DNA of 61,444 bases from an uncultured Pseudomonadales bacterium. Lineage in GTDB: Bacteria > Patescibacteriota > Microgenomatia > UBA1400 > PJMF01. Location of the stretch: contig CAYVXV010000005.1 of NCBI GenBank assembly GCA_964455555.1, forward strand, positions 1 to 61,444, given 5' to 3'. Shown here one piece after another: positions 12,910 through 32,480 of this stretch. The notes beneath the pieces are model-generated. The model had not been told where the DNA came from, did no database searches, and was given only the letters and a program-made list of their open reading frames with translations. Numbering within the stretch: position 1 is the first letter of the stretch; every line of letters begins with the position of its first letter. Both the position numbers and the translations under genes were made by a program.

Positions 12910-12993
12910 AGCAAGCCCCATCAATCCATTCAGTGGTAATGGACGGGTCTATCAGAACTTTTCGATTGTTGCGGAGGTGGTGGGATTCGAACC
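12910..12993 (-). repeat. Truncated tRNA-Ser 3-prime end (T-loop to discriminator) plus about 60-nt downstream flank; putative att-type repeat
   Basis: The minus strand reads GGTTCGAATCCCACCACCTCCGCAACAATCGAAAAGTTCTGATAGACCCGTC...TTGATGGGGCTTGCT. This is colinear with the 3-prime end and flank of the intact tRNA-Ser at 16355-16437. There is no 5-prime half, so it is not a functional tRNA. Confidence 0.75.
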
Positions 12994-13077
12994 GCGCAAC
13001 ATTTACCTCAAGTATTTATAGGTCTAAGAGCCATTCTAGCTCATTTTTAGACCTTGCGAAGCATCAAAAGTGAGTCA

Positions 13078-13086
13078 TGATATAAT
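13078..13086 (+). promoter_or_regulatory. Extended -10 promoter (TGaTATAAT)
   Basis: Same TGnTATAAT architecture as at 407-415. An ATG lies 7 nt downstream. Confidence 0.4.
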
Positions 13087-13092
13087 CATTAC

Positions 13093-13218
13093 AATGCAAA
13101 TAAATAACATGCACCACTATGCTTGGTATTACACCCCAACCGGGAGGTGTGTGTTTTTAGTGCAGTAATAAAATAAAAAGCATGAATAAGTCACAACCTC
13201 CCACCTGGGAGGTTTTTT
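13093..13218 (+). ncRNA. Candidate sRNA or pair of mini-ORFs (24 and 12 codons) ending in a strong terminator
   Basis: Two hairpins share CC-ACC-N-GGGAGGU: ACACC..GGUGU at about 13130-13152, and AACCUCCC-ACCU-GGGAGGUU + U6 at 13195-13218. Mini-ORFs are MQINNMHHYAWYYTPTGRCVFLVQ (13094-13168) and MNKSQPPTWEVF (13182-13220). Confidence 0.3.
13195..13218 (+). terminator. Rho-independent terminator
   Basis: Perfect 8-bp stem AACCTCCC/GGGAGGTT with a 4-nt loop, followed by a T-run. Confidence 0.75.
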
Positions 13219-13355
13219 AGTATTTATTCATAGAAAGGGCATCATGCCAGAACAATTACAAAACATTTTATGGATGGGTGAAGAAATGGATTTTAATCTT
13301 CGACCTGAGGATAAAGCACAAGCAAGAACTTCAATCCAAGAGTTCTTGAATTTAG

Positions 13356-14237
13356 TTGCTAACCCAGCGTTATCCCACTGGCTTTATCGAGCCAACAAAT
13401 AATATTCCCAAACTAGAAAAAGAAATTGTATCTTTAAATAACCAACCTACTTTAGTCATTGATTTGACGAGAGGTAAACTTGCGTCATCTTTAACTTCAA
13501 TTGCTCATATTCCCCAATGGAATTCATTTTCAATTGGCAGAGTACGAGAAGCGACAAAAGTTGATTTGCCAACAAGTGGACATATTTTAAGCCATAATAC
13601 TGAAGAAATTAGAGATCAACTCATTGATCTCGATACTTCTCGCATACTGGTATTGGATGATACATCCTTCTCAGGAACAACTTCATTGCTGGTTGAAAGT
13701 TTACTAAAACAAGCATTCCCAGATAGAATAATCCAATTTACTCACGGATTCTTAATCGTGAATACTGGCAAACTAGGTAATCAAGATGGAGCTTTTAGCC
13801 AAATTAATAGAGGTGGTTCTCATGTTATCAGTGGTTTTAAAATGGAAACTCCCAGGGATGATGGATGGCATTTCTTTGACATTGTTGATCAAGATCACAT
13901 AGAAAATCATTTATTAGTTGTTAAAGAAATCTTAGGATTACTCCAACTTCCTAATTTTGAACATCTGATTGCTTCGTTTTTAAGTAACGAAAATGTATTA
14001 CAAGCAATGTTTCCACAACTAATGCCAGCAGATGATTTGCTTGACCAGCAAAAGTCAGGACATTTCCTCGCTCGGACAAATATTAATGGTGGATTCCATG
14101 TAAGAAATCCACAATTACTACCCAATATTATTGGTCAGAATCATTTATTGACACCTTCAAAATGGAAAGCCAGTTCTAATCAAGTGTTTGCACTACTCGT
14201 ACAAATTAATAAATTTTTGCGGAAAGGAAATGTATGA
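13356..14237 (+). CDS. Phosphoribosyltransferase-like protein with a long C-terminal extension; 5-prime end unclear (possible frameshift with ORF 13244-13402)
   Basis: PRPP-loop ILVLDDTSFSGTTS. The only in-frame start is the TTG at 13356, with no SD. The upstream ATG ORF (13244) has an SD-like GAAAGGG and overlaps it in the 0/+1 frames. Confidence 0.55.
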   Translation: MLTQRYPTGFIEPTNNIPKLEKEIVSLNNQPTLVIDLTRGKLASSLTSIAHIPQWNSFSIGRVREATKVDLPTSGHILSHNTEEIRDQLIDLDTSRILVLDDTSFSGTTSLLVESLLKQAFPDRIIQFTHGFLIVNTGKLGNQDGAFSQINRGGSHVISGFKMETPRDDGWHFFDIVDQDHIENHLLVVKEILGLLQLPNFEHLIASFLSNENVLQAMFPQLMPADDLLDQQKSGHFLARTNINGGFHVRNPQLLPNIIGQNHLLTPSKWKASSNQVFALLVQINKFLRKGNV

Positions 14238-14905
14238 AAAAAATTGAAGCCATAATTTTTGATATGGACGGTACTCTGTACTCTTTTGATGAAGGAAATG
14301 AAAGCCAGTTCACATCTTCTAGATTTGGGAAGGAAATTCGAGTAAATTGCATTCTATTCTTCAAAGAACGGTTTAATCTTTCTCTAAAGGATGCTGAAAG
14401 CATGTATCAAGATTTAAGTAGAAGATATAATGGCGAAGTCAGTCTTGCAGTTGAAAAGGAGTTTGGCATAGATCGCAGTGAATACTTTGCTTTTACTTGG
14501 AATCTAGAAGCTGAGGAATTTATTGCTACAAATGAATCACTCTTGCCTACATTCCAAGAATTAACCATTCCCTCTGGAGTGTTAACAGCTGCACCCAGAG
14601 TTTGGGCAGAAAGGGCTCTTGCCTTTTTACAAATCCGTCAACTTTTTGGTGATGCATTGTTTACGGGAGATCCAGATATTCGCAAACCTGATCCAGAGGC
14701 ATTTCTACAATTAGCTCAGTTTTGGAACTTAGAACCAAGTCGAATCTTGTCTATCGGAGATCAAGAACAAACAGATATTTTACCTGCCAAATCACTGGGA
14801 ATGCAAACACTGCGAATTGCTACACAAGCCGAAACTAAGGCTGACTTTATGGCACCAGATATTATTAAAGCCATAGCTTTATTAAAAGAGAAAGGAATTA
14901 TATGA
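14234..14905 (+). CDS. HAD-superfamily phosphatase (nucleotidase-like)
   Basis: Motif I IIFDMDGTLY and motif IV GDQEQTD. Its ATG overlaps the stop of the upstream gene (ATGA). Confidence 0.7.
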   Translation: MKKIEAIIFDMDGTLYSFDEGNESQFTSSRFGKEIRVNCILFFKERFNLSLKDAESMYQDLSRRYNGEVSLAVEKEFGIDRSEYFAFTWNLEAEEFIATNESLLPTFQELTIPSGVLTAAPRVWAERALAFLQIRQLFGDALFTGDPDIRKPDPEAFLQLAQFWNLEPSRILSIGDQEQTDILPAKSLGMQTLRIATQAETKADFMAPDIIKAIALLKEKGII

Positions 14906-15834
14906 ACAATAAACCAAAACTTATCATCGACACTGATCCAGGACACGATGATGCTCTTGCAATATTAATGACACTCTTGTCAGATCAATTTGACGTATTA
15001 GCAATCACCACAGTGGCTGGTAATGCGACAATTAAAAAAGTAACAAGAAATGCACAGGCGATTCTTGATTTGATTGGCTCTCATGCTCCAGTTTTTTCTG
15101 GTATAGACAAGCCTTTGAAGCGAAAACTTGTTACTGCCGTAGTGCATGGTGAATCTGGGTTGGCGGGGTTTGATACTACTAACACTGACTACAAAGTAAC
15201 AAAAAATGCACCTGAGAAAATAGTTGAGTTAGTTAAAGCCAATCCAGGAGAAGTGACAATTTTAGCACTTGGACCACTGAGTAATATAGCTCGGGCCATA
15301 CAACTAGATTCACAGTTTTCAAGCAAAGTAAAACAACTTGTAATCATGGGTGGTGCGATAGACGTTCCTGGCAATAAAAATAGAGTGGCTGAGTTTAACT
15401 TCTTTGTAGATCCTGAGGCAGCTAACCTTGTCTTTAAATCCAAAATTCCAAAAGTTTTGGTACCTCTTGATGCCTGCAATGAAATAGTGCTTCAGGTTGA
15501 GGATTTTCAAAAGGTGGAAAACGATAATCTCAAATCAATTCTGATTCCCATGATGGAACACTTTATTGCTGGACTCACTTCTGACGAAGGCACGACAGGA
15601 ATTCTCGTTTACGATGCTCTTGCCGCTTACTACCTTCTTAATCCAAATGCGTTCACTCTGAAATCGATGAATGTGGTGATTGAAACTCAAGGACAACATA
15701 CCTTTGGCATGAGTGTGGCAGAAAAGCGGCCACATAAAGTTGAAAATACAAATGTTGAAGTTGTGGTAGGAATTGACGACCAGCAATTTCGTCGAGACTT
15801 TTTTAAAACATTAAGTACTGGGGAGCAAAAATGA
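14902..15834 (+). CDS. Nucleoside hydrolase (inosine-uridine preferring, IUNH family)
   Basis: N-terminal fingerprint LIIDTDPGHDDALAI and typical length. Start overlaps the upstream stop (ATGA). Confidence 0.85.
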   Translation: MNNKPKLIIDTDPGHDDALAILMTLLSDQFDVLAITTVAGNATIKKVTRNAQAILDLIGSHAPVFSGIDKPLKRKLVTAVVHGESGLAGFDTTNTDYKVTKNAPEKIVELVKANPGEVTILALGPLSNIARAIQLDSQFSSKVKQLVIMGGAIDVPGNKNRVAEFNFFVDPEAANLVFKSKIPKVLVPLDACNEIVLQVEDFQKVENDNLKSILIPMMEHFIAGLTSDEGTTGILVYDALAAYYLLNPNAFTLKSMNVVIETQGQHTFGMSVAEKRPHKVENTNVEVVVGIDDQQFRRDFFKTLSTGEQK

Positions 15835-16232
15835 AAGTTCTGTTTGTGTGCCAAGCCAATGTGGGAAGAAGTCAAATGGCTGAAGCGTTTTATAACTTTC
15901 ATACACAGAGTAATGATGCTATCAGTGCTGGAGTAGAAGATTTTCGAGAAAAGTATCAACACAAGCCAACTCGAGAAATAATTGAAGCCATGCTAGAAAA
16001 AGGAATTGACATTTCTCATCAACGAATTGATTTTTTAACACCAGGGATGCTCACAAACGCTGACCAGGTAGTTGTGCTTTGCTCAAAAGACTTGTGTCCT
16101 GAATTCTTACTTGAAAACGGAAAAGTTGTTTTTAGAGAAATTGAGGATCCACATCAACAAGATTTGAAAACTATTCAGCGAATTAGAGATCAGATTGGAG
16201 GGTTAGTTCTTGAGTTGGTAAAAAATATCTGA
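15831..16232 (+). CDS. Low-molecular-weight phosphatase / ArsC-type reductase family protein
   Basis: P-loop VLFVCQANVGRSQMAEA (CX5R-S) plus a second Cys pair LCSKDLCP. Start overlaps the upstream stop (ATGA). Confidence 0.7.
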   Translation: MKVLFVCQANVGRSQMAEAFYNFHTQSNDAISAGVEDFREKYQHKPTREIIEAMLEKGIDISHQRIDFLTPGMLTNADQVVVLCSKDLCPEFLLENGKVVFREIEDPHQQDLKTIQRIRDQIGGLVLELVKNI

Positions 16233-16354
16233 AATATCGATAAATAACTTACTAAGCTGTAAAGCTGAAATATGTTTAAAACGAGGTTTTTAAGCAAGAT
16301 CCATCAACCCATTCGAGAGTATTAGACGGGTCTATCAGAACTTTTCAACTGTTG

Positions 16355-16437
16355 CGGAAGGAGTGGGATTCGAACCCACGAAGCCGTGAGGCTCTGGTTT
16401 TCAAGACCAGTGCAATTGACCGCTCTGCCATCCTTCC
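16355..16437 (-). tRNA. tRNA-Ser (anticodon UGA)
   Basis: Minus strand reads GGAAGGA...TCCTTCC-G. Anticodon loop CTTGAAA, long variable arm, T-loop TTCGAAT. Confidence 0.9.
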
Positions 16438-16511: not shown

Positions 16512-17585
16512 TTGCAGAATACCCAAGGTATCGTGTACACTGAAGGTATGTTCGACCCTGCCCGCGACAACCAGCAGCCAGAATCCACTCCGCCATCCAA
16601 TCCTACGGTTGCGTTTAAGCAGTCCATGCAGGGCAGCAACCCCTCACCCGCTCCAAATCAGGATCATGAAACTCCTGTTTTTATCAACCGATCCGGCACT
16701 TTTGTACCAGGAGCTCCGCCTCCACCTGCTCAGGAACCAGAGGCAGCCGGTTTAACTCAAGCAAAAAATCAAGCAACACCGCAGACTGCTTACACTGCCC
16801 CTCCTCCTCCCAGCGATGTTCCGCCCAAGCCTGAAACGGCTCCTTTTACTCCACAGACTGAGCCTCAACCTGCCGATCCAAATCCAATAGGCCAGCCTGC
16901 CGCACCGGAACAACCAGGTTTTCAGAATCAAAACCAAACAGAGCAACCAAATATAGCAGAGCCAAACCTTGAGCAGCCAGATCAGAAACAATCCAACTCA
17001 AGCCAACAAAACCCATCCCGCTTCGACAATGTACCTCCGGATGAGTACCAAGATGAGTACTATGATAATTATTACCCTCCCTACATGCCGCCGCCACCAA
17101 TTCAAGAAGAGTTGATTTATGAGTGGGAAGCACCAAGCCGGCCTTTCAAACCTCACAAGCGACAGTATTACACTACTGTCGGCACCATTGTGCTATTGAT
17201 CTCACTCATCCTGTTCTTCGCCGGCCAATTCCTGCCTATAGCTGTTGTCATAGCAGTAGCCTTTTTGACATACGTCATGACTAGTATTCCGCCTGGAAAT
17301 GTTACCAATACTACCACCACTTTTGGCATTAGGATCGGCGACCAGCTATATTTTTGGGAGGAATTGGGTAGGTTTTGGTTTAAGAAAAAGTATGATGAGG
17401 AAGTGCTTTATATTGAGGCTTTCCGCTTTCCAAACCGGCTCACTTTGCTGCTGGGCAAGGCAGATAAAGCACTGATCCGCGACATCCTGTCGCTGGCTTT
17501 GCTTGAAGGCGAACCTGCGCCGACTTACTACGAAAGAGCTGCTGACTGGCTTCAAAAAAAGATCCCACTAGACCTTGATGCATAA
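16512..17585 (+). CDS. Pro/Gln-rich low-complexity protein with C-terminal two-TM domain
   Basis: About 190 aa of P/Q/N-rich sequence, then TM helices and a conserved-looking C-terminal domain. The start is uncertain (the ATG at 16548 is possible). Confidence 0.55.
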   Translation: MQNTQGIVYTEGMFDPARDNQQPESTPPSNPTVAFKQSMQGSNPSPAPNQDHETPVFINRSGTFVPGAPPPPAQEPEAAGLTQAKNQATPQTAYTAPPPPSDVPPKPETAPFTPQTEPQPADPNPIGQPAAPEQPGFQNQNQTEQPNIAEPNLEQPDQKQSNSSQQNPSRFDNVPPDEYQDEYYDNYYPPYMPPPPIQEELIYEWEAPSRPFKPHKRQYYTTVGTIVLLISLILFFAGQFLPIAVVIAVAFLTYVMTSIPPGNVTNTTTTFGIRIGDQLYFWEELGRFWFKKKYDEEVLYIEAFRFPNRLTLLLGKADKALIRDILSLALLEGEPAPTYYERAADWLQKKIPLDLDA

Positions 17586-18399: not shown

Positions 18400-18484
18400 G
18401 GAGGAGTCGCATAGTGGCCAATTGCACCGGTTTCGAAAACCGGACCCTTCATTGGGTTCGTGGGTTCAAATCCCACCTCCTCCG
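18400..18484 (+). tRNA. tRNA-Ser (anticodon CGA)
   Basis: Acceptor GGAGGAG/CTCCTCC-G, anticodon loop TTCGAAA, long variable arm, T-loop TTCAAAT. Confidence 0.9.
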
Positions 18485-18826
18485 CATAGAAAATTATGTT
18501 AAAAAAAATTTACCAAAAAAATTAGAAAAATTAATATTATACTTTTGCCAATACATTTACTCATGATATTTGAGTTATTCATGATTGGATTATTTACATA
18601 CCATTATAAAAATAACAATTTTGAGAGATATAATTGCAAACAAATGCTACTGCAGGATAGGAGCACTCTTCTACAAAATAAAAACAATTTAGCTTGCCAA
18701 ACAATCTGCACACTACCAGCCAATATTAGAGGTCTAATTATGACGATAGTGGCACTTTATCTAATAAATTTTATTGATAGGAAGTACCTTAAATTAAGCA
18801 ATCTATTAAGTAAGCCTAGGTAAAAT

Positions 18827-19450
18827 GTGAGTAATATAGAATCGTATTTTAAAAACCCTTGGAAAGAAGATGGCCGCACTCTTAAGTCGCCTTATATGGC
18901 AGTGTTAAGAGATGCGAGAAAAGCTACAAATAGAAATCAAACAACTGGAAACTTATTGACCTCAAAAAAAACCTTAAACAGGCATGGAAGCTGGATAGGT
19001 AGCTTAGGATATCTAATTCTTATTGACCACGTTGGTTCACACTTTACTTTGATAGACGCAGACATCAGCAGAGGAAGTGTAAATAACTTTATCTATGCAT
19101 TGAAAGTATTTTCAGATCTCTCTGAAAAAGAAAGGCTAGCATTGTATGCTTTGAGAAATTGTTTTGCTCATGATTATGGGCTTACAAATATACCAGACGA
19201 CCGTATGAATACACAAGTTAGAGATTTACTATTTCATCACTTTGTTGTTTATGATTCAGATAATGGTGAGATGATTTCATTTCCAAAAACGAGATGGGAT
19301 GGAAGTGATATTACAAAAAAATCACACATTACAAAAATAAATCTCAGAAAAGTAGGAAATTTTGTTGAAGAAATGCATATATCTCTTAAGGGCTTGGCTG
19401 CAGCCAAAAAGCTGAAAGTGACAGCTGATCTAGAATTAATTCATTACTAA
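18827..19450 (+). CDS. HEPN-motif protein (putative RNase; Abi/toxin-like)
   Basis: 207 aa with LALYALRNCFAHDYGL, that is an Rx4H motif (R110, H115) in a helical context as in HEPN families. Very AT-rich, with a GTG start. It is the sole cargo between tRNA-Ser(CGA) and a degenerate repeat of the tRNA 3-prime end. Confidence 0.55.
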   Translation: MSNIESYFKNPWKEDGRTLKSPYMAVLRDARKATNRNQTTGNLLTSKKTLNRHGSWIGSLGYLILIDHVGSHFTLIDADISRGSVNNFIYALKVFSDLSEKERLALYALRNCFAHDYGLTNIPDDRMNTQVRDLLFHHFVVYDSDNGEMISFPKTRWDGSDITKKSHITKINLRKVGNFVEEMHISLKGLAAAKKLKVTADLELIHY

Positions 19451-19483
19451 GGTTCCAACTTCATCCCACCTTCTCCACAACAA
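19451..19483 (+). repeat. Degenerate direct repeat of the tRNA-Ser 3-prime end
   Basis: GGTTCCAACTTCATCCCACCTTCTCCACAACAA compares with the tRNA 3-prime end GGGTTCAAATCCCACCTCCTCCGCA and with 1383-1415 (GTTCCAACATCATCCCA...CCGCAACAA). Confidence 0.55.
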
Positions 19484-19489
19484 GCCGCC

Positions 19490-21541
19490 CTATAACTCCC
19501 TCGCAAACTCCGTCAGCCCCCAGATAGTTGCCTTACTATTGGAAAAAACCGGAGATAGATGTGCCTTCGGTCCGGTGTCAATGTTGAAGACCTGATTCGG
19601 TTCATGAAGAATATAGAGGTAATCAATTCCATATTCCATCATTTTAGCAGCAACTGCACTGCTGGATGCGGTTGCAAACAAAAATTCAACATTTTCCATC
19701 CTTTGTTCAACCGGCTGGTTGTGACTTAGTAAGATATTAGAACCTGCCATATATGACTGACGCTTAGAAAAGAGTGAGACATATGGAGTCTCATAATTAT
19801 CGTGCCTCAATTTATTATGTGCCTGAACCACAGCATTTTTCTCTGTGTTTTCCCTTAGGTATGTCAAAGCCTCTTCTTCTGCTTGTGAAAGAATCATGCT
19901 TTCCTCGAAAAAAATTGTGCTTCTGATAAATAAATAAGCATCCTGAAGCGGACGAGGAACGGATAGCGCTATGATTAGCACTGAGAGGGTTATGTATGCA
20001 AGTTTGGGGACCTTGGTTTTTATCCACTCTAAATTAAAAGGCAAAAGCAAACCCCCCACCCAAAGCGAAACAATGAAAAAATTAAAAACGTTTGCACCAC
20101 CGGATGACTGCAAAACATTCATTCCCAGGACAGTGAAAGCAAGTGTGGCCGGCCAAACAAATACTAAAAAAGCATTTTGGACTTTGTTTTTTTTGAGCCA
20201 TTGCACCGGAGGAACTAATCCCAGCAGCCTAGTGCCATACATAGCAGTTAAAAAGATTGCTGTTGCCATACCAAACCAGACAACAAGCGCCTTAACATTA
20301 CCTGCCTCTTCATAAACCTGTAAGCGCAGCCACCACTCGTTCCAATCTAGGTTTTGTGCTCCCAGTAAAATTTTTGGCCAAGCAAAAGGTGCGAGAAATA
20401 AACCGCCTGCGTCTTTGTTTGGAGGTAAAAATACAGCTAAAGAAACAACACCAAATATTAGGTAACAAAACAGGTGCTTTATTAAATTCAGCGGTGCAAC
20501 TATGCGTTGTTTCTTCAGTGAATGGACAAATCCCACAAAAATTTGTAAAAGAAGATATAAACTGTACCCAACTACAGCAAAAATTCCCCAGTAAACCTTA
20601 AAACCAAATAAGCTGGCAAATAAAAGAGCCATTGCCACTCCAAACTTAAGCCTCCCCTTTCTTACAAACATTAAAAACAAAATGACGGCGGCAACCAACG
20701 TCATTCTGGCAAAAGCCTGAGGCATATTTAAAAACTGCAATACTCCATGGTCTATTGCAGGAAGATTCCAAGCTAGTTTTCCTGTAAATAATTTGGCAAA
20801 AATATGAGCAGAATTTCCGGCAAAAAAATGAAAAAACAATACCCAGCGCTGTGTAACAACAGATCCATTAAGCATTTTAATAAGTGAAATGAGCAGAGTG
20901 GGAATACTTAAAGCAATAACAAAGGGAAGGAACTGAAAATACAAGTGATTAACTGAGAGAAAAAACAGACGAGATGCATCTGACAGATACAAGTCTGACC
21001 AGTAATGATAATTGGTTACCAATAGGCCGGCTGCCCCAGGTTGTACAGGAGGAAAGTTATCCTTGCTAAATTCTGCAAAACCAAGATGTAGTAAACCATC
21101 TACACTATTAAGACGGTGATAAATTATTCCTTCGGACTGCCTGAAACCTGAAGTTGCAACCACTACCAACTGCATAGCCACGCCAATCACCAATAATAAC
21201 AAGATAGTTTTATCAAACTGTATAAGTTGCATTCTAGCTGCTTTTAGCAATCCAACCAGCATATCTCTTTGGAGAATCAATGATACCGCGCCCATTAATG
21301 GAAAGAGCCAACTCAGCCATCTTAAGCCCAGATAGCCAAATAAATAACCTGAACCGCTAAAAATAACTACACTAAAAACGAATGAAAAAGCTAGTACCCC
21401 AAGCGGATCATTTTCGAGATACCGCTTGGAAAGAAGAGTTTTTGCCACGAATACACCGAGAGATAATGAAATGGTTAAAAAAGTCAGGAATTTAACTGCC
21501 TCAAACAAAAATTCAATACTGAATAAAGGGAAAATATTCAT
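19490..21541 (-). CDS. Large polytopic membrane protein (possible GT-C-type glycosyltransferase or polymerase; function uncertain)
   Basis: 683 aa with more than 12 predicted TM segments and a C-terminal soluble domain. No diagnostic motif recognised. Confidence 0.5.
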   Translation of the reverse strand: MNIFPLFSIEFLFEAVKFLTFLTISLSLGVFVAKTLLSKRYLENDPLGVLAFSFVFSVVIFSGSGYLFGYLGLRWLSWLFPLMGAVSLILQRDMLVGLLKAARMQLIQFDKTILLLLVIGVAMQLVVVATSGFRQSEGIIYHRLNSVDGLLHLGFAEFSKDNFPPVQPGAAGLLVTNYHYWSDLYLSDASRLFFLSVNHLYFQFLPFVIALSIPTLLISLIKMLNGSVVTQRWVLFFHFFAGNSAHIFAKLFTGKLAWNLPAIDHGVLQFLNMPQAFARMTLVAAVILFLMFVRKGRLKFGVAMALLFASLFGFKVYWGIFAVVGYSLYLLLQIFVGFVHSLKKQRIVAPLNLIKHLFCYLIFGVVSLAVFLPPNKDAGGLFLAPFAWPKILLGAQNLDWNEWWLRLQVYEEAGNVKALVVWFGMATAIFLTAMYGTRLLGLVPPVQWLKKNKVQNAFLVFVWPATLAFTVLGMNVLQSSGGANVFNFFIVSLWVGGLLLPFNLEWIKTKVPKLAYITLSVLIIALSVPRPLQDAYLFIRSTIFFEESMILSQAEEEALTYLRENTEKNAVVQAHNKLRHDNYETPYVSLFSKRQSYMAGSNILLSHNQPVEQRMENVEFLFATASSSAVAAKMMEYGIDYLYILHEPNQVFNIDTGPKAHLSPVFSNSKATIWGLTEFAREL

Positions 21542-32041: not shown

Positions 32042-32308
32042 CTATAATACGGATACTTCGGGGATGTATTGCTTTGACGTGATACGCTCATTAACATCTG
32101 CAGACCGTCTTTGATCAGAGAAGACGTTAAACAGGGTCACAAACACAACTGCAAACGAAAAAATTGCAGGCGCCAAAAGCATGTTGCTCGAAACCCTTGG
32201 TTTCGGCTCATCTGAGGCCCCAGCTTTCGCTCCAGCAATGGTTGCGTAAAGCGGCATTCGGTTGTCCGGTCTCATTGATGCCGGCTTCCGGGTGAAAACC
32301 TTAATCAA
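32042..32308 (-). CDS. Hypothetical 88-aa protein with one TM segment (doubtful)
   Basis: ORF only, overlapped by other short ORFs. Confidence 0.2.
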   Translation of the reverse strand: MIKVFTRKPASMRPDNRMPLYATIAGAKAGASDEPKPRVSSNMLLAPAIFSFAVVFVTLFNVFSDQRRSADVNERITSKQYIPEVSVL

Positions 32309-32480
32309 TGTGACAGCAGCCCGTCGCTTGTTGCGGACAGCTTAAGACTAAAGACAAGGATTGGTTGAAAACGGTTGGTTTGCTTTACCTCTCATCCAAT
32401 AACAAAGGCAAACTAAGTCTGTAGATGATGTTATTGCTCTATTGCGGACGGGGGCTCAAAACCCCCCATCTCCACTATAA

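What the first reader, a model, noticed from the sequence alone, without database searches (positions are those of the whole stretch)
18485..19483. Single-gene HEPN (Rx4H) islet inserted next to tRNA-Ser(CGA)
Immediately after tRNA-Ser(CGA) the composition drops to very AT-rich for about 1 kb and returns to normal after a degenerate repeat of the tRNA 3-prime end (19451-19483). The only substantial ORF (18827-19450, GTG start) carries LALYALRNCFAHDYGL. This is an R-x4-H motif in the typical sequence context (RN..AH) of HEPN RNases from abortive-infection, toxin-antitoxin and CRISPR accessory systems. No cognate MNT-type antitoxin or other partner is visible. A 60-codon AT-rich ORF (18644-18823) ends 3 nt before the GTG and could be a partner, or the 340-nt upstream region could encode an RNA antitoxin. 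A stand-alone HEPN gene on a minimal tRNA islet in a reduced genome is a plausible uncharacterised defence or toxin module.
Basis: partly seen in the sequence, partly recalled or inferred. Interest (0 to 1): 0.7.

Follow-up and report, generated by a model that had tools for sequence, protein, structure and literature searches.

The report
Solo HEPN-like gene beside tRNA-Ser
A 1-kb AT-rich insert next to a serine tRNA carries a single intact gene from a widespread but unnamed protein family whose strictly conserved R-x4-H motif points to a latent RNA-cutting toxin or phage-defence enzyme, though neither the HEPN fold nor the function could be proven here.

Summary
tRNA-Ser(CGA) lies at 18400-18485. 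It is followed by a ~1-kb low-GC stretch (31% against 44% for the rest of the window). That stretch ends at a degenerate copy of the tRNA 3' end (19451-19479; 7 of 2000 shuffles score as high). The only solid gene is 18827-19450 (207 aa).

The gene belongs to a real family: 516 cluster representatives, all ~200-230 aa and all called "hypothetical". The family has no Pfam, NCBIfam, PADLOC or PDB sequence match. R110 (120/121) and H115 (121/121) are conserved, as are R31, R36, Y62 and E181.

A high-confidence AlphaFold model (pLDDT 94) puts R-x4-H at the C-terminal end of the third long helix, where HEPN domains carry it. Foldseek finds no significant match; the top PDB hit is the HepT toxin, at E=3.3. 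Only sub-threshold HMM hits point to HEPN families (RiboL-PSP, HepT, Apea, Csm6).

The family is patchy across phyla. Its GC is lower than its flanks in 28 of 30 loci. It has no conserved partner gene and often sits beside Mrr, restriction-modification methylases, ParE, integrases or recombinases. No MNT, RNA antitoxin or conserved upstream ORF was found.

Verdict: probably a new, divergent solo HEPN-like RNase family with a defence or toxin role. Moderately interesting.

The parts
18400..18485 (+). Intact tRNA-Ser(CGA), forming the left boundary of the islet
   Evidence: ARAGORN; Rfam RF00005, 56.8 bits
18459..18486 (+). tRNA 3' end acting as the left copy of the direct repeat (attL-like); the core is ATCCCACCTCCTCCGCA at 18470-18486
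18487..18826 (+). AT-rich leader of 340 nt (GC 0.24-0.31). It presumably carries the promoter. No RNA family, tandem array or stable structure was detected.
   Evidence: fold z-score +0.85
18545..18823 (+). Doubtful upstream ORF: 92 codons from TTG, or 60 codons from ATG at 18644. It is hydrophobic and in the same frame as the main gene, separated by TAA+AAT. It is not conserved in any homologous locus.
   Evidence: It was not called as a gene in the longer identical contig L010.
18827..19450 (+). The gene (GTG start, 207 aa, P0001). It is an intact member of an unnamed ~210-aa family with an HEPN-like R-x4-H motif.
   Evidence: The N-terminal alignment with homologues supports the GTG start.
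19154..19171 (+). Codons for R110-N-C-F-A-H115, the proposed catalytic R-x4-H motif
   Evidence: Read directly from the sequence. R is conserved in 120/121 and H in 121/121 homologues. The motif sits at the C-terminal end of helix 100-116.
19451..19479 (+). Degenerate copy of the tRNA-Ser 3' end (attR-like): GGTTCCAACTTCATCCCACCTTCTCCACA. It forms the right boundary of the islet, between two convergent stop codons.
   Evidence: (7 of 2000 shuffles)

Best explanation
The 18487-19479 segment is most likely the decayed remnant of a DNA insertion at the 3' end of tRNA-Ser(CGA). It has kept one functional cargo gene.

That gene (18827-19450) encodes a member of a previously unnamed, horizontally scattered ~210-aa protein family. 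I interpret the family as a new and highly divergent branch of the HEPN superfamily of metal-independent RNases.

Proposed mechanism (inferred, not shown):
- The protein oligomerises so that two R110-x4-H115 motifs, each at the end of core helix 3, face each other and form a composite RNase site.
- The other invariant residues that map near the same predicted pole (R31, R36, Y62) and E181 in helix 4 would help bind or position the RNA. Whether they cluster in 3D was not checked.
- The enzyme is kept latent without a dedicated antitoxin.
- It is switched on by an infection or stress cue, possibly sensed by the beta-strand insertions that decorate the helical core.
- It then cleaves tRNA or other RNA to arrest the cell, giving abortive-infection-type defence as shown for the solo HEPN proteins HepS and ApeA.

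What is shown: the islet anatomy, the existence of the family, the conserved residues, the position of the motif in a confident model, the lack of a conserved partner, and the gene's low-GC, defence-island-like contexts.

What is inferred: HEPN homology, RNase activity, oligomeric activation and the defence role.
For: **Anatomy**
- tRNA, GC trough and repeat.

**Family**
- 516 cluster representatives with E<1e-3 and 264 with E<1e-10, nearly all 200-230 aa.
- Invariant R31, R36, Y62, H115 and E181. R110 is conserved in 120/121, and position 67 is D or E in all 121.
- The window protein keeps every one of these residues.

**Structure**
- AF2 model with pLDDT 93.9 and pTM 0.91. Long helices are at 22-33, 56-72, 100-116 and 173-192. 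There is one insert between helices 2 and 3 and a beta-containing insert after helix 3.
- This fits the HEPN description in PMC3710099: R-x4-6-H at the end of helix 3, an acidic residue in helix 2, an insert between H2 and H3, a beta-hairpin after the motif in Csx1, and a polar residue after the R. The window protein has N111 after R110.

**Weak but consistent pointers to HEPN**
- The top Foldseek PDB hit for both models is the HepT toxin 5yep_C.
- A core-only profile aligns its LRcslaH motif onto LRNSIAH of Csm6 (5yjc, E 0.54) and also hits HepT (5yep_B, E 1.0).
- In per-member Pfam scans, HEPN families are among the most frequent weak hits: HEPN_RiboL-PSP in 3 of 40 (best E 0.004) and HepT-like in 2 of 40 for core sequences. 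For full-length members, HepT-like hits 3 of 121, with single hits to HEPN_Apea and HEPN_DZIP3.

**Ecology**
- Closest genomic relatives are in Candidatus Shapirobacteria. The rest are scattered over Bacteroidota, Chloroflexota, Burkholderiales, Amycolatopsis, Acidimicrobiia, Komeilibacteria and a Thermoproteota MAG.
- Gene GC is below flank GC in 28 of 30 loci, and the trough is confined to the gene.
- No neighbour is conserved.
- Neighbours include Mrr type IV restriction enzymes directly upstream in two loci, one of them the closest relative at 49% identity. Others are a DUF4145 protein with an N6_Mtase/Eco57I methylase and ParE.
- In a census of 149 neighbours, the most frequent families include N6_Mtase (3) and Phage_integrase (3), followed by Recombinase (2), ResIII (2), a type I REase and DpdF.

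**Precedent**
- Partner-less HEPN defence proteins are documented: HepS (PMC13043305) and ApeA (10.64898/2026.01.26.701840).
Against: - No statistically significant link to any HEPN family was obtained. hmmscan of the protein gives 0 hits at E<=1 in Pfam, PADLOC and NCBIfam.
- PDB profile searches give nothing below E=0.06, and the best hits there are odorant-binding proteins.
- Foldseek of a pLDDT-94 model finds nothing at E<1 in the PDB, although the PDB holds many HEPN structures.
- hhalign against a DUF4145 (HEPN-type) neighbour family gives probability 0.1%.
- The residue after the R is Cys in 92 of 121 members, not the usual N/D/H.
- The model is alpha+beta rather than a plain four-helix bundle.
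- The family is absent from 72,556 plasmids and 50,697 phage genomes. It is on only 1 IMG/VR contig, which is unusual for a mobile defence gene.
- Many loci have ordinary housekeeping neighbours.
- The islet has no integrase, and no empty site could be found.
Confidence: 0.55

Rival explanations
1. The protein is not an HEPN domain at all. It would be an enzyme with a new or unrecognised alpha+beta fold, whose catalytic centre is built from the invariant R31, R36, Y62, H115 and E181 (plus R110). It could be a DNase, a nucleotide- or NAD-processing enzyme, or a nucleic-acid-modifying enzyme. The R-x4-H spacing would be a coincidence of helix geometry.
For: - A very confident model (pLDDT 93.9) has no Foldseek match at E<0.1 in the PDB or BFVD.
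- No profile hit reaches significance.
- Five residues outside the canonical HEPN signature are as conserved as the motif, or more so.
- Cys rather than N/D/H follows the Arg in most members.
Against: - The motif position (end of the third long helix), the acidic residue in helix 2 and the location of the inserts match the HEPN description.
- HEPN families are strongly over-represented among the weak hits, and the motifs align in register with Csm6.
- The top PDB fold hit is HepT in both models.
Confidence: 0.2
2. It is an HEPN-like RNase but not a defence gene or toxin. Instead it would be an accessory RNA-processing or RNA-turnover enzyme that happens to be AT-rich and patchily distributed. 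Its place beside a tRNA would be incidental.
For: - Many loci have housekeeping neighbours such as YceG, SDR, tRNA synthetases and epimerases.
- There is no antitoxin or immunity partner.
- The family is virtually absent from plasmids and phages.
- It is vertically retained in related Acidimicrobiia genomes (L035 and L036 share flanks).
Against: - The phyletic pattern is patchy across unrelated phyla.
- A gene-limited GC trough is seen in 28 of 30 loci.
- Restriction, toxin and recombinase neighbours recur.
- No conserved operon with RNA-metabolism genes exists.
Confidence: 0.15
3. There is no insertion. The AT-rich kilobase would be native sequence (a long promoter region plus a lysine/asparagine/isoleucine-rich gene), and the 15/17 match to the tRNA 3' end would be a chance similarity.
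For: - There is no integrase or recombinase in or beside the islet.
- The repeat is short and degenerate, with an empirical p of only about 0.004 before allowing for choice of region.
- The gene is low in GC in almost every genome, whatever its context, so low GC may be a property of the gene.
- No tRNA-end repeats occur in the two other tRNA-adjacent loci.
- No empty site could be found.
Against: - The repeat sits exactly at the composition step and exactly between the stop codons of convergent genes.
- The 340-nt leader (GC 0.24-0.31) is far below anything else nearby.
- A second, better tRNA-Ser 3'-end fragment (21/23) bounds another low-GC block next to tRNA-Ser(TGA) in the same window. 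This suggests tRNA-Ser genes are insertion sites in this genome.
Confidence: 0.25

Closest known systems
Solo HEPN abortive-infection proteins: HepS (Gifsy-1 prophage, Salmonella; PMC13043305) and ApeA (bioRxiv 10.64898/2026.01.26.701840); older examples recalled from memory are AbiD/F, AbiU2 and AbiV
   Same: - A single small gene with no antitoxin.
- R-N-x3-H at about residue 100-115 (HepS: R100-N101-H105; here R110-N111-H115).
- Carried in accessory or variable DNA.
- The proposed latent RNase would be activated on infection.
   Different: - No detectable sequence similarity: the PDB profile searches, Pfam HEPN_Apea and the PADLOC Abi models are all non-significant.
- No Foldseek match.
- The family has its own extra invariant residues (R31, R36, Y62, E181) and beta-strand inserts.
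- The family is almost absent from phages and plasmids.
- No activity data exist.
HepT/MntA (HEPN-MNT) type II toxin-antitoxin, e.g. SO_3166/SO_3165 (PDB 5yep)
   Same: - HepT is the best Foldseek PDB hit, although weak (E 3.3, TMt 0.36).
- It is a recurrent sub-threshold Pfam and PDB sequence hit.
- The R-x4-H lies near the end of a helix.
   Different: - No MNT nucleotidyltransferase lies next to the gene, either here or in any of about 35 related loci.
- The protein is about 70 residues longer, with beta inserts.
- The HepT-like HMM is never significant.
Csm6/Csx1 CRISPR-associated HEPN RNases
   Same: - The core profile aligns LRcslaH onto Csm6 LRNSIAH together with the following helix.
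- Csx1 also has a beta-hairpin inserted right after the motif (PMC3710099).
   Different: - No CARF domain, and no CRISPR-Cas genes detected among the neighbours scanned.
- The E-value of 0.54 is not significant.
tRNA-gene-targeted genomic islets or integrative elements
   Same: - An intact tRNA at one end.
- A degenerate direct repeat of the tRNA 3' end at the other.
- Deviant base composition and accessory cargo.
   Different: - Only about 1 kb long, with a single gene.
- No integrase or excisionase, so it is at best a fossil of such an element.
- No empty site is available for comparison.

Membership tests
HEPN superfamily | Conserved R-x4-6-H motif | tested here: met
   R110 is conserved in 120/121 and H115 in 121/121 aligned homologues. 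Both are present in the window protein.
HEPN superfamily | Motif located at the C-terminal end of core helix 3, running into the loop before helix 4 (PMC3710099) | tested here: met
   In the AF2 model (pLDDT 93.9), helix 100-116 ends at the motif. Next come a loop and beta insert, then helix 173-192.
HEPN superfamily | Polar residue (N/D/H) immediately after the Arg | tested here: inconclusive
   The window protein has N111. Across the family the residue is C in 92, N in 24 and H in 3 of 121.
HEPN superfamily | Conserved acidic residue in helix 2, close to the motif | tested here: inconclusive
   Position 67 is D (111) or E (10) in all 121 members and lies in helix 56-72. Its spatial proximity to R110 and H115 could not be checked because no coordinates were available.
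HEPN superfamily | Four-helix up-down bundle superposable on solved HEPN domains | tested here: inconclusive
HEPN superfamily | Significant profile similarity to a recognised HEPN family | tested here: not met
   - The protein has no Pfam, NCBIfam or PADLOC hit.
- Only sub-threshold hits were seen: HEPN_RiboL-PSP E 0.004, HepT-like 0.012, Apea 0.034, DZIP3 0.052, Csm6 0.54.
- hhalign against a DUF4145 family gives probability 0.1%.
- HHpred against all HEPN profiles was not available.
HEPN superfamily | Metal-independent RNase activity from a composite dimeric site | not testable with these tools
   Needs biochemistry or a multimer model.
HEPN-MNT (HepT/MntA) type II TA | Adjacent minimal nucleotidyltransferase antitoxin gene | tested here: not met
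   The neighbours are Maf, the tRNA and a 683-aa membrane protein. The 92-aa upstream ORF has no NTase hit. No neighbour is conserved across loci.
Type III toxin-antitoxin (RNA antitoxin, ToxIN-like) | Tandem array of short repeats, or a structured RNA, upstream of the toxin gene and conserved among homologues | tested here: not met
   - TRF finds only an A-rich 12-mer in 2.4 copies.
- The fold z-score is +0.85.
- There is no Rfam hit.
- The leader has no upstream counterpart in other loci: only two 20-26-nt matches elsewhere in L013 and L032.
tRNA-integrated genomic island | tRNA gene at one boundary and a direct repeat of its 3' end at the other | tested here: met
   The core matches at 15 of 17 positions and extends to 29 nt with indels. 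7 of 2000 shuffles score as high.
tRNA-integrated genomic island | Integrase or recombinase gene within the island | tested here: not met
   Only the 207-aa gene and a doubtful 92-aa ORF are present, and neither hits a recombinase family.
tRNA-integrated genomic island | Empty site in related genomes | tested here: inconclusive
   A metagenome scan with the adjacent Maf protein found only a relative at 29% identity. The other contigs carrying the gene are identical to the window.
Known anti-phage defence systems (PADLOC-DB v2) | Match to a defence-system protein model | tested here: not met
   0 families at E<=1.

The most novel reading that the evidence does not exclude
The family is not a conventional HEPN. 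It would be a new fold or a new catalytic class: an alpha+beta protein with an invariant R31/R36/Y62/R110/H115/E181 centre. It would spread through bacteria, including ultra-small CPR lineages, and some archaea as a self-sufficient single-gene cassette, without its own recombinase or partner. It would be a new type of solo immune or toxin effector whose sensing module is built into the beta inserts.
Probability: 0.15. Interest if true: 0.7.

Novelty: new variant of a known kind. Interest (0 to 1): 0.45.

Why it matters
If the reading is right, it defines a sizeable protein family that is missing from Pfam, NCBIfam, PADLOC and the PDB. The family has at least 516 clusters at 50% identity and spans many phyla. 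It would be another branch of the HEPN RNase superfamily acting alone.

That would add to the recently recognised class of partner-less HEPN defence proteins (HepS, ApeA). It would also extend that class to genome-reduced Patescibacteria/CPR-like organisms, if this window is indeed from one (not verified here; only the closest relatives are from Shapirobacteria).

The family offers a compact 207-aa, high-confidence-model target for testing how a solo RNase is kept silent and then triggered.

The islet, together with a second one in the same window, also suggests that tRNA-Ser genes serve as landing sites for small cargo in this genome.

It does not open a long-standing question. New HEPN families are found regularly.

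Tried and rejected
1. **Upstream 60/92-codon ORF as partner: rejected.** It has no family hit and no counterpart in about 35 homologous loci by tblastn. It has no plasmid match, and it was not called as a gene in contig L010. It is in frame with the main gene, which is probably a coincidence. N-terminal extensions in some homologues look like over-called starts in high-GC genomes.
2. **RNA antitoxin in the 340-nt leader: rejected**.
3. **Conserved neighbour or operon: none.** All-vs-all blastp of ORFs from 30 loci found nothing shared. No flanking DNA is shared except between near-identical genomes.
4. **Link to DUF4145: none.** I built a 12-sequence profile of the DUF4145 protein next to the closest homologue. 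hhalign gave probability 0.1%.
5. **Phage or plasmid carriage: essentially none.** tblastn with two family members found nothing. Only one IMG/VR contig carries the gene.
6. **Empty-site search: failed.** The adjacent Maf protein has no close relatives in metagenome contigs.
7. **tRNA linkage as a family trait: rejected.** Only 3 of 29 loci have any tRNA within 6 kb, and none shows a repeat.
8. **First structure model: superseded.** The 5-sequence MSA gave pLDDT 70. Its fold search was uninformative.
9. **HEPN paper supplement: unusable.** The supplementary alignments of PMC3710099 are not held as text, so local hhalign against HEPN families was not possible.
10. **HNH, PD-(D/E)xK and ADP-ribosyltransferase readings of the conserved residues: dismissed.** The predicted secondary structure around them is helical (inference).
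Full report
**1. The observation**

ARAGORN and Rfam both call an intact tRNA-Ser(CGA) at 18400-18485 on the + strand. Immediately after it, GC in 200-nt windows drops from 0.46 to 0.24-0.365. It climbs back to 0.47 at 19400-19599. Overall the islet is 31.4% GC, the gene 34.3% and the rest of the window 44.2%.

The right flank is a 683-aa membrane-protein gene on the minus strand with GC of only ~0.38-0.41. The step is real, but the 'return to normal' is partial.

The right edge carries a degenerate copy of the tRNA 3' end.
- The core is 18470-18486 ATCCCACCTCCTCCGCA against 19463-19479 ATCCCACCTTCTCCACA, matching at 15 of 17 positions.
- With two indels the similarity extends back to GGTTC (19451-19479).
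- Its local-alignment score (23) is reached by 7 of 2000 shuffles of the downstream 1.5 kb.
- It is the best match to this tRNA's last 40 nt (the query used) in the whole window that does not fall on a tRNA, tmRNA or tRNA-fragment site.
- It exactly fills the gap between the stop codon of the gene (19448-19450) and the stop of the convergent membrane-protein gene (19490-19492).

The only ORF above 92 codons is 18827-19450 (GTG start, 207 aa). R110 and H115 are encoded at 19154-19156 and 19169-19171.

**2. Is the gene real, and is the motif meaningful?**

A bare R-x4-H is expected by chance about once in four proteins of this size (my estimate), so conservation is the real test.

The word-indexed search found only four relatives. 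The exhaustive phmmer scan of 1.84 billion cluster representatives found 516 with E<1e-3 and 264 with E<1e-10. Practically all are 200-230 aa and match end to end.

In a 121-sequence alignment:
- the invariant residues are R31, R36, Y62, H115 and E181;
- R110 is present in 120 of 121;
- position 67 is always D or E;
- W56, G58, G70, N121, F139, W157 and T169 are conserved at 90% or more.

The window protein keeps all of them. Its N-terminus aligns with homologues, which supports the GTG start. It is an intact member of a genuine family under selection.

Every member that carries a source name is 'hypothetical protein', and none has a precomputed Pfam domain. The protein itself has no hit at E<=1 in Pfam, NCBIfam, PADLOC or PDB sequences.

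**3. Is it HEPN?**

With the 121-sequence alignment, AlphaFold2 gives a very confident model (pLDDT 93.9, pTM 0.91). Its layout is:
- a short N-terminal beta hairpin;
- four long helices at 22-33, 56-72, 100-116 and 173-192;
- a strand-plus-helix insert between helices 2 and 3;
- a larger beta-containing insert between helices 3 and 4.

The reference description of HEPN (PMC3710099) lists these features:
- a four-helix up-down bundle with frequent inserts between helices 2 and 3;
- a polar residue after the Arg;
- a conserved acidic residue in helix 2;
- in Csx1, a beta-hairpin right after the motif.

The present model matches each of these at the level of secondary structure. If the helices run up-down, R31, R36, W56, G58, Y62, R110 and H115 would lie towards the same pole of the bundle (E181 in mid-helix 4 is less clear).

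Statistical support is lacking.
- Foldseek of the good model finds nothing below E=3 in the PDB. In BFVD it finds only an uncharacterised Arthrobacter-phage protein at E=0.14.
- The top PDB hit for both models is nevertheless the HEPN toxin HepT (5yep_C).
- When the inserts are cut out and a core-only profile is used, the handful of PDB sequences at E<10 includes Csm6 (5yjc, E 0.54). Its LRNSIAH aligns exactly on the family's LRcslaH, together with the next helix. HepT (5yep_B, E 1.0) is also in that list.
- In per-member Pfam scans, HEPN families are the most recurrent weak hits. For core sequences these are HEPN_RiboL-PSP (3 of 40, best E 0.004) and HepT-like (2 of 40, E 0.012). For full-length members they are HepT-like (3 of 121), HEPN_Apea and HEPN_DZIP3.
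- HEPN models are far below 1% of Pfam (my rough recollection is a few dozen of 24,736), so this enrichment is not random. It is largely driven by the motif itself, however.
- A direct hhalign against the DUF4145 family found next to the closest homologue was negative.

My estimate is about 75% that this is a divergent HEPN domain and about 20% that it is something structurally new.

**4. Partners**

None was found.
- The 92-codon (or 60-codon) upstream ORF has no family hit and no counterpart in any related locus. It was not called in a longer identical contig.
- It lies in the same frame as the gene, separated by TAA-AAT. I record this but regard it as a coincidence.
- The 340-nt leader has no Rfam hit and no tandem array. 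It folds no better than shuffles (z = +0.85) and has no upstream counterpart in other loci (only two 20-26-nt matches elsewhere in L013 and L032).
- All-vs-all comparison of ORFs from 30 loci found no neighbour shared beyond near-identical genomes.

**5. Ecology of the family**

Genomic relatives occur in Candidatus Shapirobacteria (the closest, 39-41%) and Komeilibacteria. They also occur in Bacteroidota, Chloroflexia, Burkholderiales, Armatimonadota, Spirochaetales, Amycolatopsis, Acidimicrobiia and Bdellovibrionales, and in a Thermoproteota MAG.

In 28 of 30 loci the gene has lower GC than its flanks (mean -5.4 points). The trough is confined to the gene itself: -5.1 points, against -0.7 to -0.8 in the adjacent 800-nt bins. 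The sharpest case is an IMG/VR contig, with 53% in the gene against 68-75% around it.

Neighbours are heterogeneous but repeatedly defence- or mobilome-related:
- an Mrr type IV restriction enzyme directly upstream in L013 and in L043, the latter carrying the closest relative at 49% identity;
- a Schlafen-type helicase/GIY-YIG protein and a serine-recombinase fragment in L013;
- DUF4145 plus an N6_Mtase/Eco57I methylase in L003;
- ParE in L014;
- HARE-HTH in L001.

In a census of 149 neighbours, N6_Mtase (3) and Phage_integrase (3) top the list, followed by Recombinase, ResIII, a type I REase, DpdF and HerA. Other loci look purely housekeeping.

The family is absent from the plasmid and isolate-phage collections.

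**6. The islet**

Several features fit a decayed insertion at the tRNA 3' end: the tRNA at the left, the degenerate 3'-end repeat at the right, the extreme AT-richness of the leader, and the single foreign-looking gene. There is no integrase, and I could not find an empty site.

A second, better tRNA-Ser 3'-end fragment lies on the minus strand at 12971-12993, matching at 21 of 23 positions. It bounds another low-GC block that ends at tRNA-Ser(TGA) (16354-16437, minus strand). That block carries HAD hydrolase, nucleoside hydrolase, LMW phosphatase and one unknown gene. This makes tRNA-Ser-targeted insertion in this genome more credible.

tRNA linkage is not a property of the gene family.

**7. 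Mechanism and comparison**

The best-supported reading is a solo, latent HEPN-like RNase that acts as an abortive-infection or toxin effector. It is analogous to HepS, a single HEPN protein with R100-N101-x3-H105. HepS is a tetramer activated by a phage tail-tip protein and cleaves tRNA anticodon loops (PMC13043305). It is also analogous to ApeA, a single HEPN protein that forms an oligomeric ring, is activated by deoxydinucleotides and cleaves tRNA.

It works like these proteins only by inference. It is not a member of their families: there is no sequence or fold match. It is not a HepT/MntA pair, because there is no MNT. It is not a type III TA, because there is no RNA repeat array.

**8. 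Verdict**

- motif conservation and solo status hold;
- the HEPN fold is likely but unproven;
- a defence role is plausible from context;
- the suggested partners do not hold.

I rate the finding as a new variant of a known kind, namely an unannotated and structurally elaborated family of solo HEPN-like effectors. Interest is moderate, about 0.45.

Noticed in passing
window 12971-16437: A 23-nt copy of a tRNA-Ser 3' end (GGTTCGAATCCCACCACCTCCGC) lies on the minus strand at 12971-12993. It matches Ser-CGA at 21 of 23 positions and Ser-TGA at 20 of 23, and ARAGORN does not call it. Together with tRNA-Ser(TGA) at 16354-16437 (minus strand) it brackets a 3.4-kb low-GC block (0.35-0.40). The block encodes an unknown 293-aa protein, a HAD hydrolase, an inosine-uridine nucleoside hydrolase and an LMW phosphatase. 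This looks like a second tRNA-Ser islet with nucleoside-salvage cargo.
   Followed up: partly
window 18545-19450: The 92-codon upstream ORF and the 207-aa gene are in the same reading frame, separated only by TAA (18821-18823) and AAT. This could be coincidence, a remnant of a longer ancestral ORF, or stop-codon readthrough. No homologue shows a matching N-terminal extension.
   Followed up: partly
L038 4902-5597 (IMG/VR UViG_3300036773_000259): This is the only viral-contig member of the family. It forms a razor-sharp single-gene GC trough, 53-59% in a 68-77% GC contig. That suggests very recent acquisition of the gene alone.
   Followed up: partly
L013 5234-5941 and L043 335-1165: In two independent loci of the subfamily closest to the window protein, an Mrr-type (type IV, methyl-directed) restriction endonuclease sits directly upstream on the same strand. 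The two Mrr proteins have different domain architectures (Mrr_cat+Zn-ribbon against Mrr_N+Mrr_cat). This may be a recurrent functional pairing.
   Followed up: partly
window 32060-32475: A tmRNA with an unusually long predicted tag peptide of 32 residues, ANEKIAGAKSMLLETLGFGSSEAPAFAPAMVA.
   Followed up: no
window 16512-17585 and 19490-21541: Two large genes flank the region, and neither has any Pfam match. One is a 357-aa protein with a long Pro/Gln-rich N-terminal half and a hydrophobic segment. The other is a 683-aa polytopic membrane protein.
   Followed up: no
L040 175-2142 / L041 2576-4543: In another close relative (P0181, 44% identity), a 655-aa protein with no Pfam or PADLOC match lies 34 nt upstream on the same strand in two samples. 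It may be an unrecognised partner specific to that lineage.
   Followed up: no
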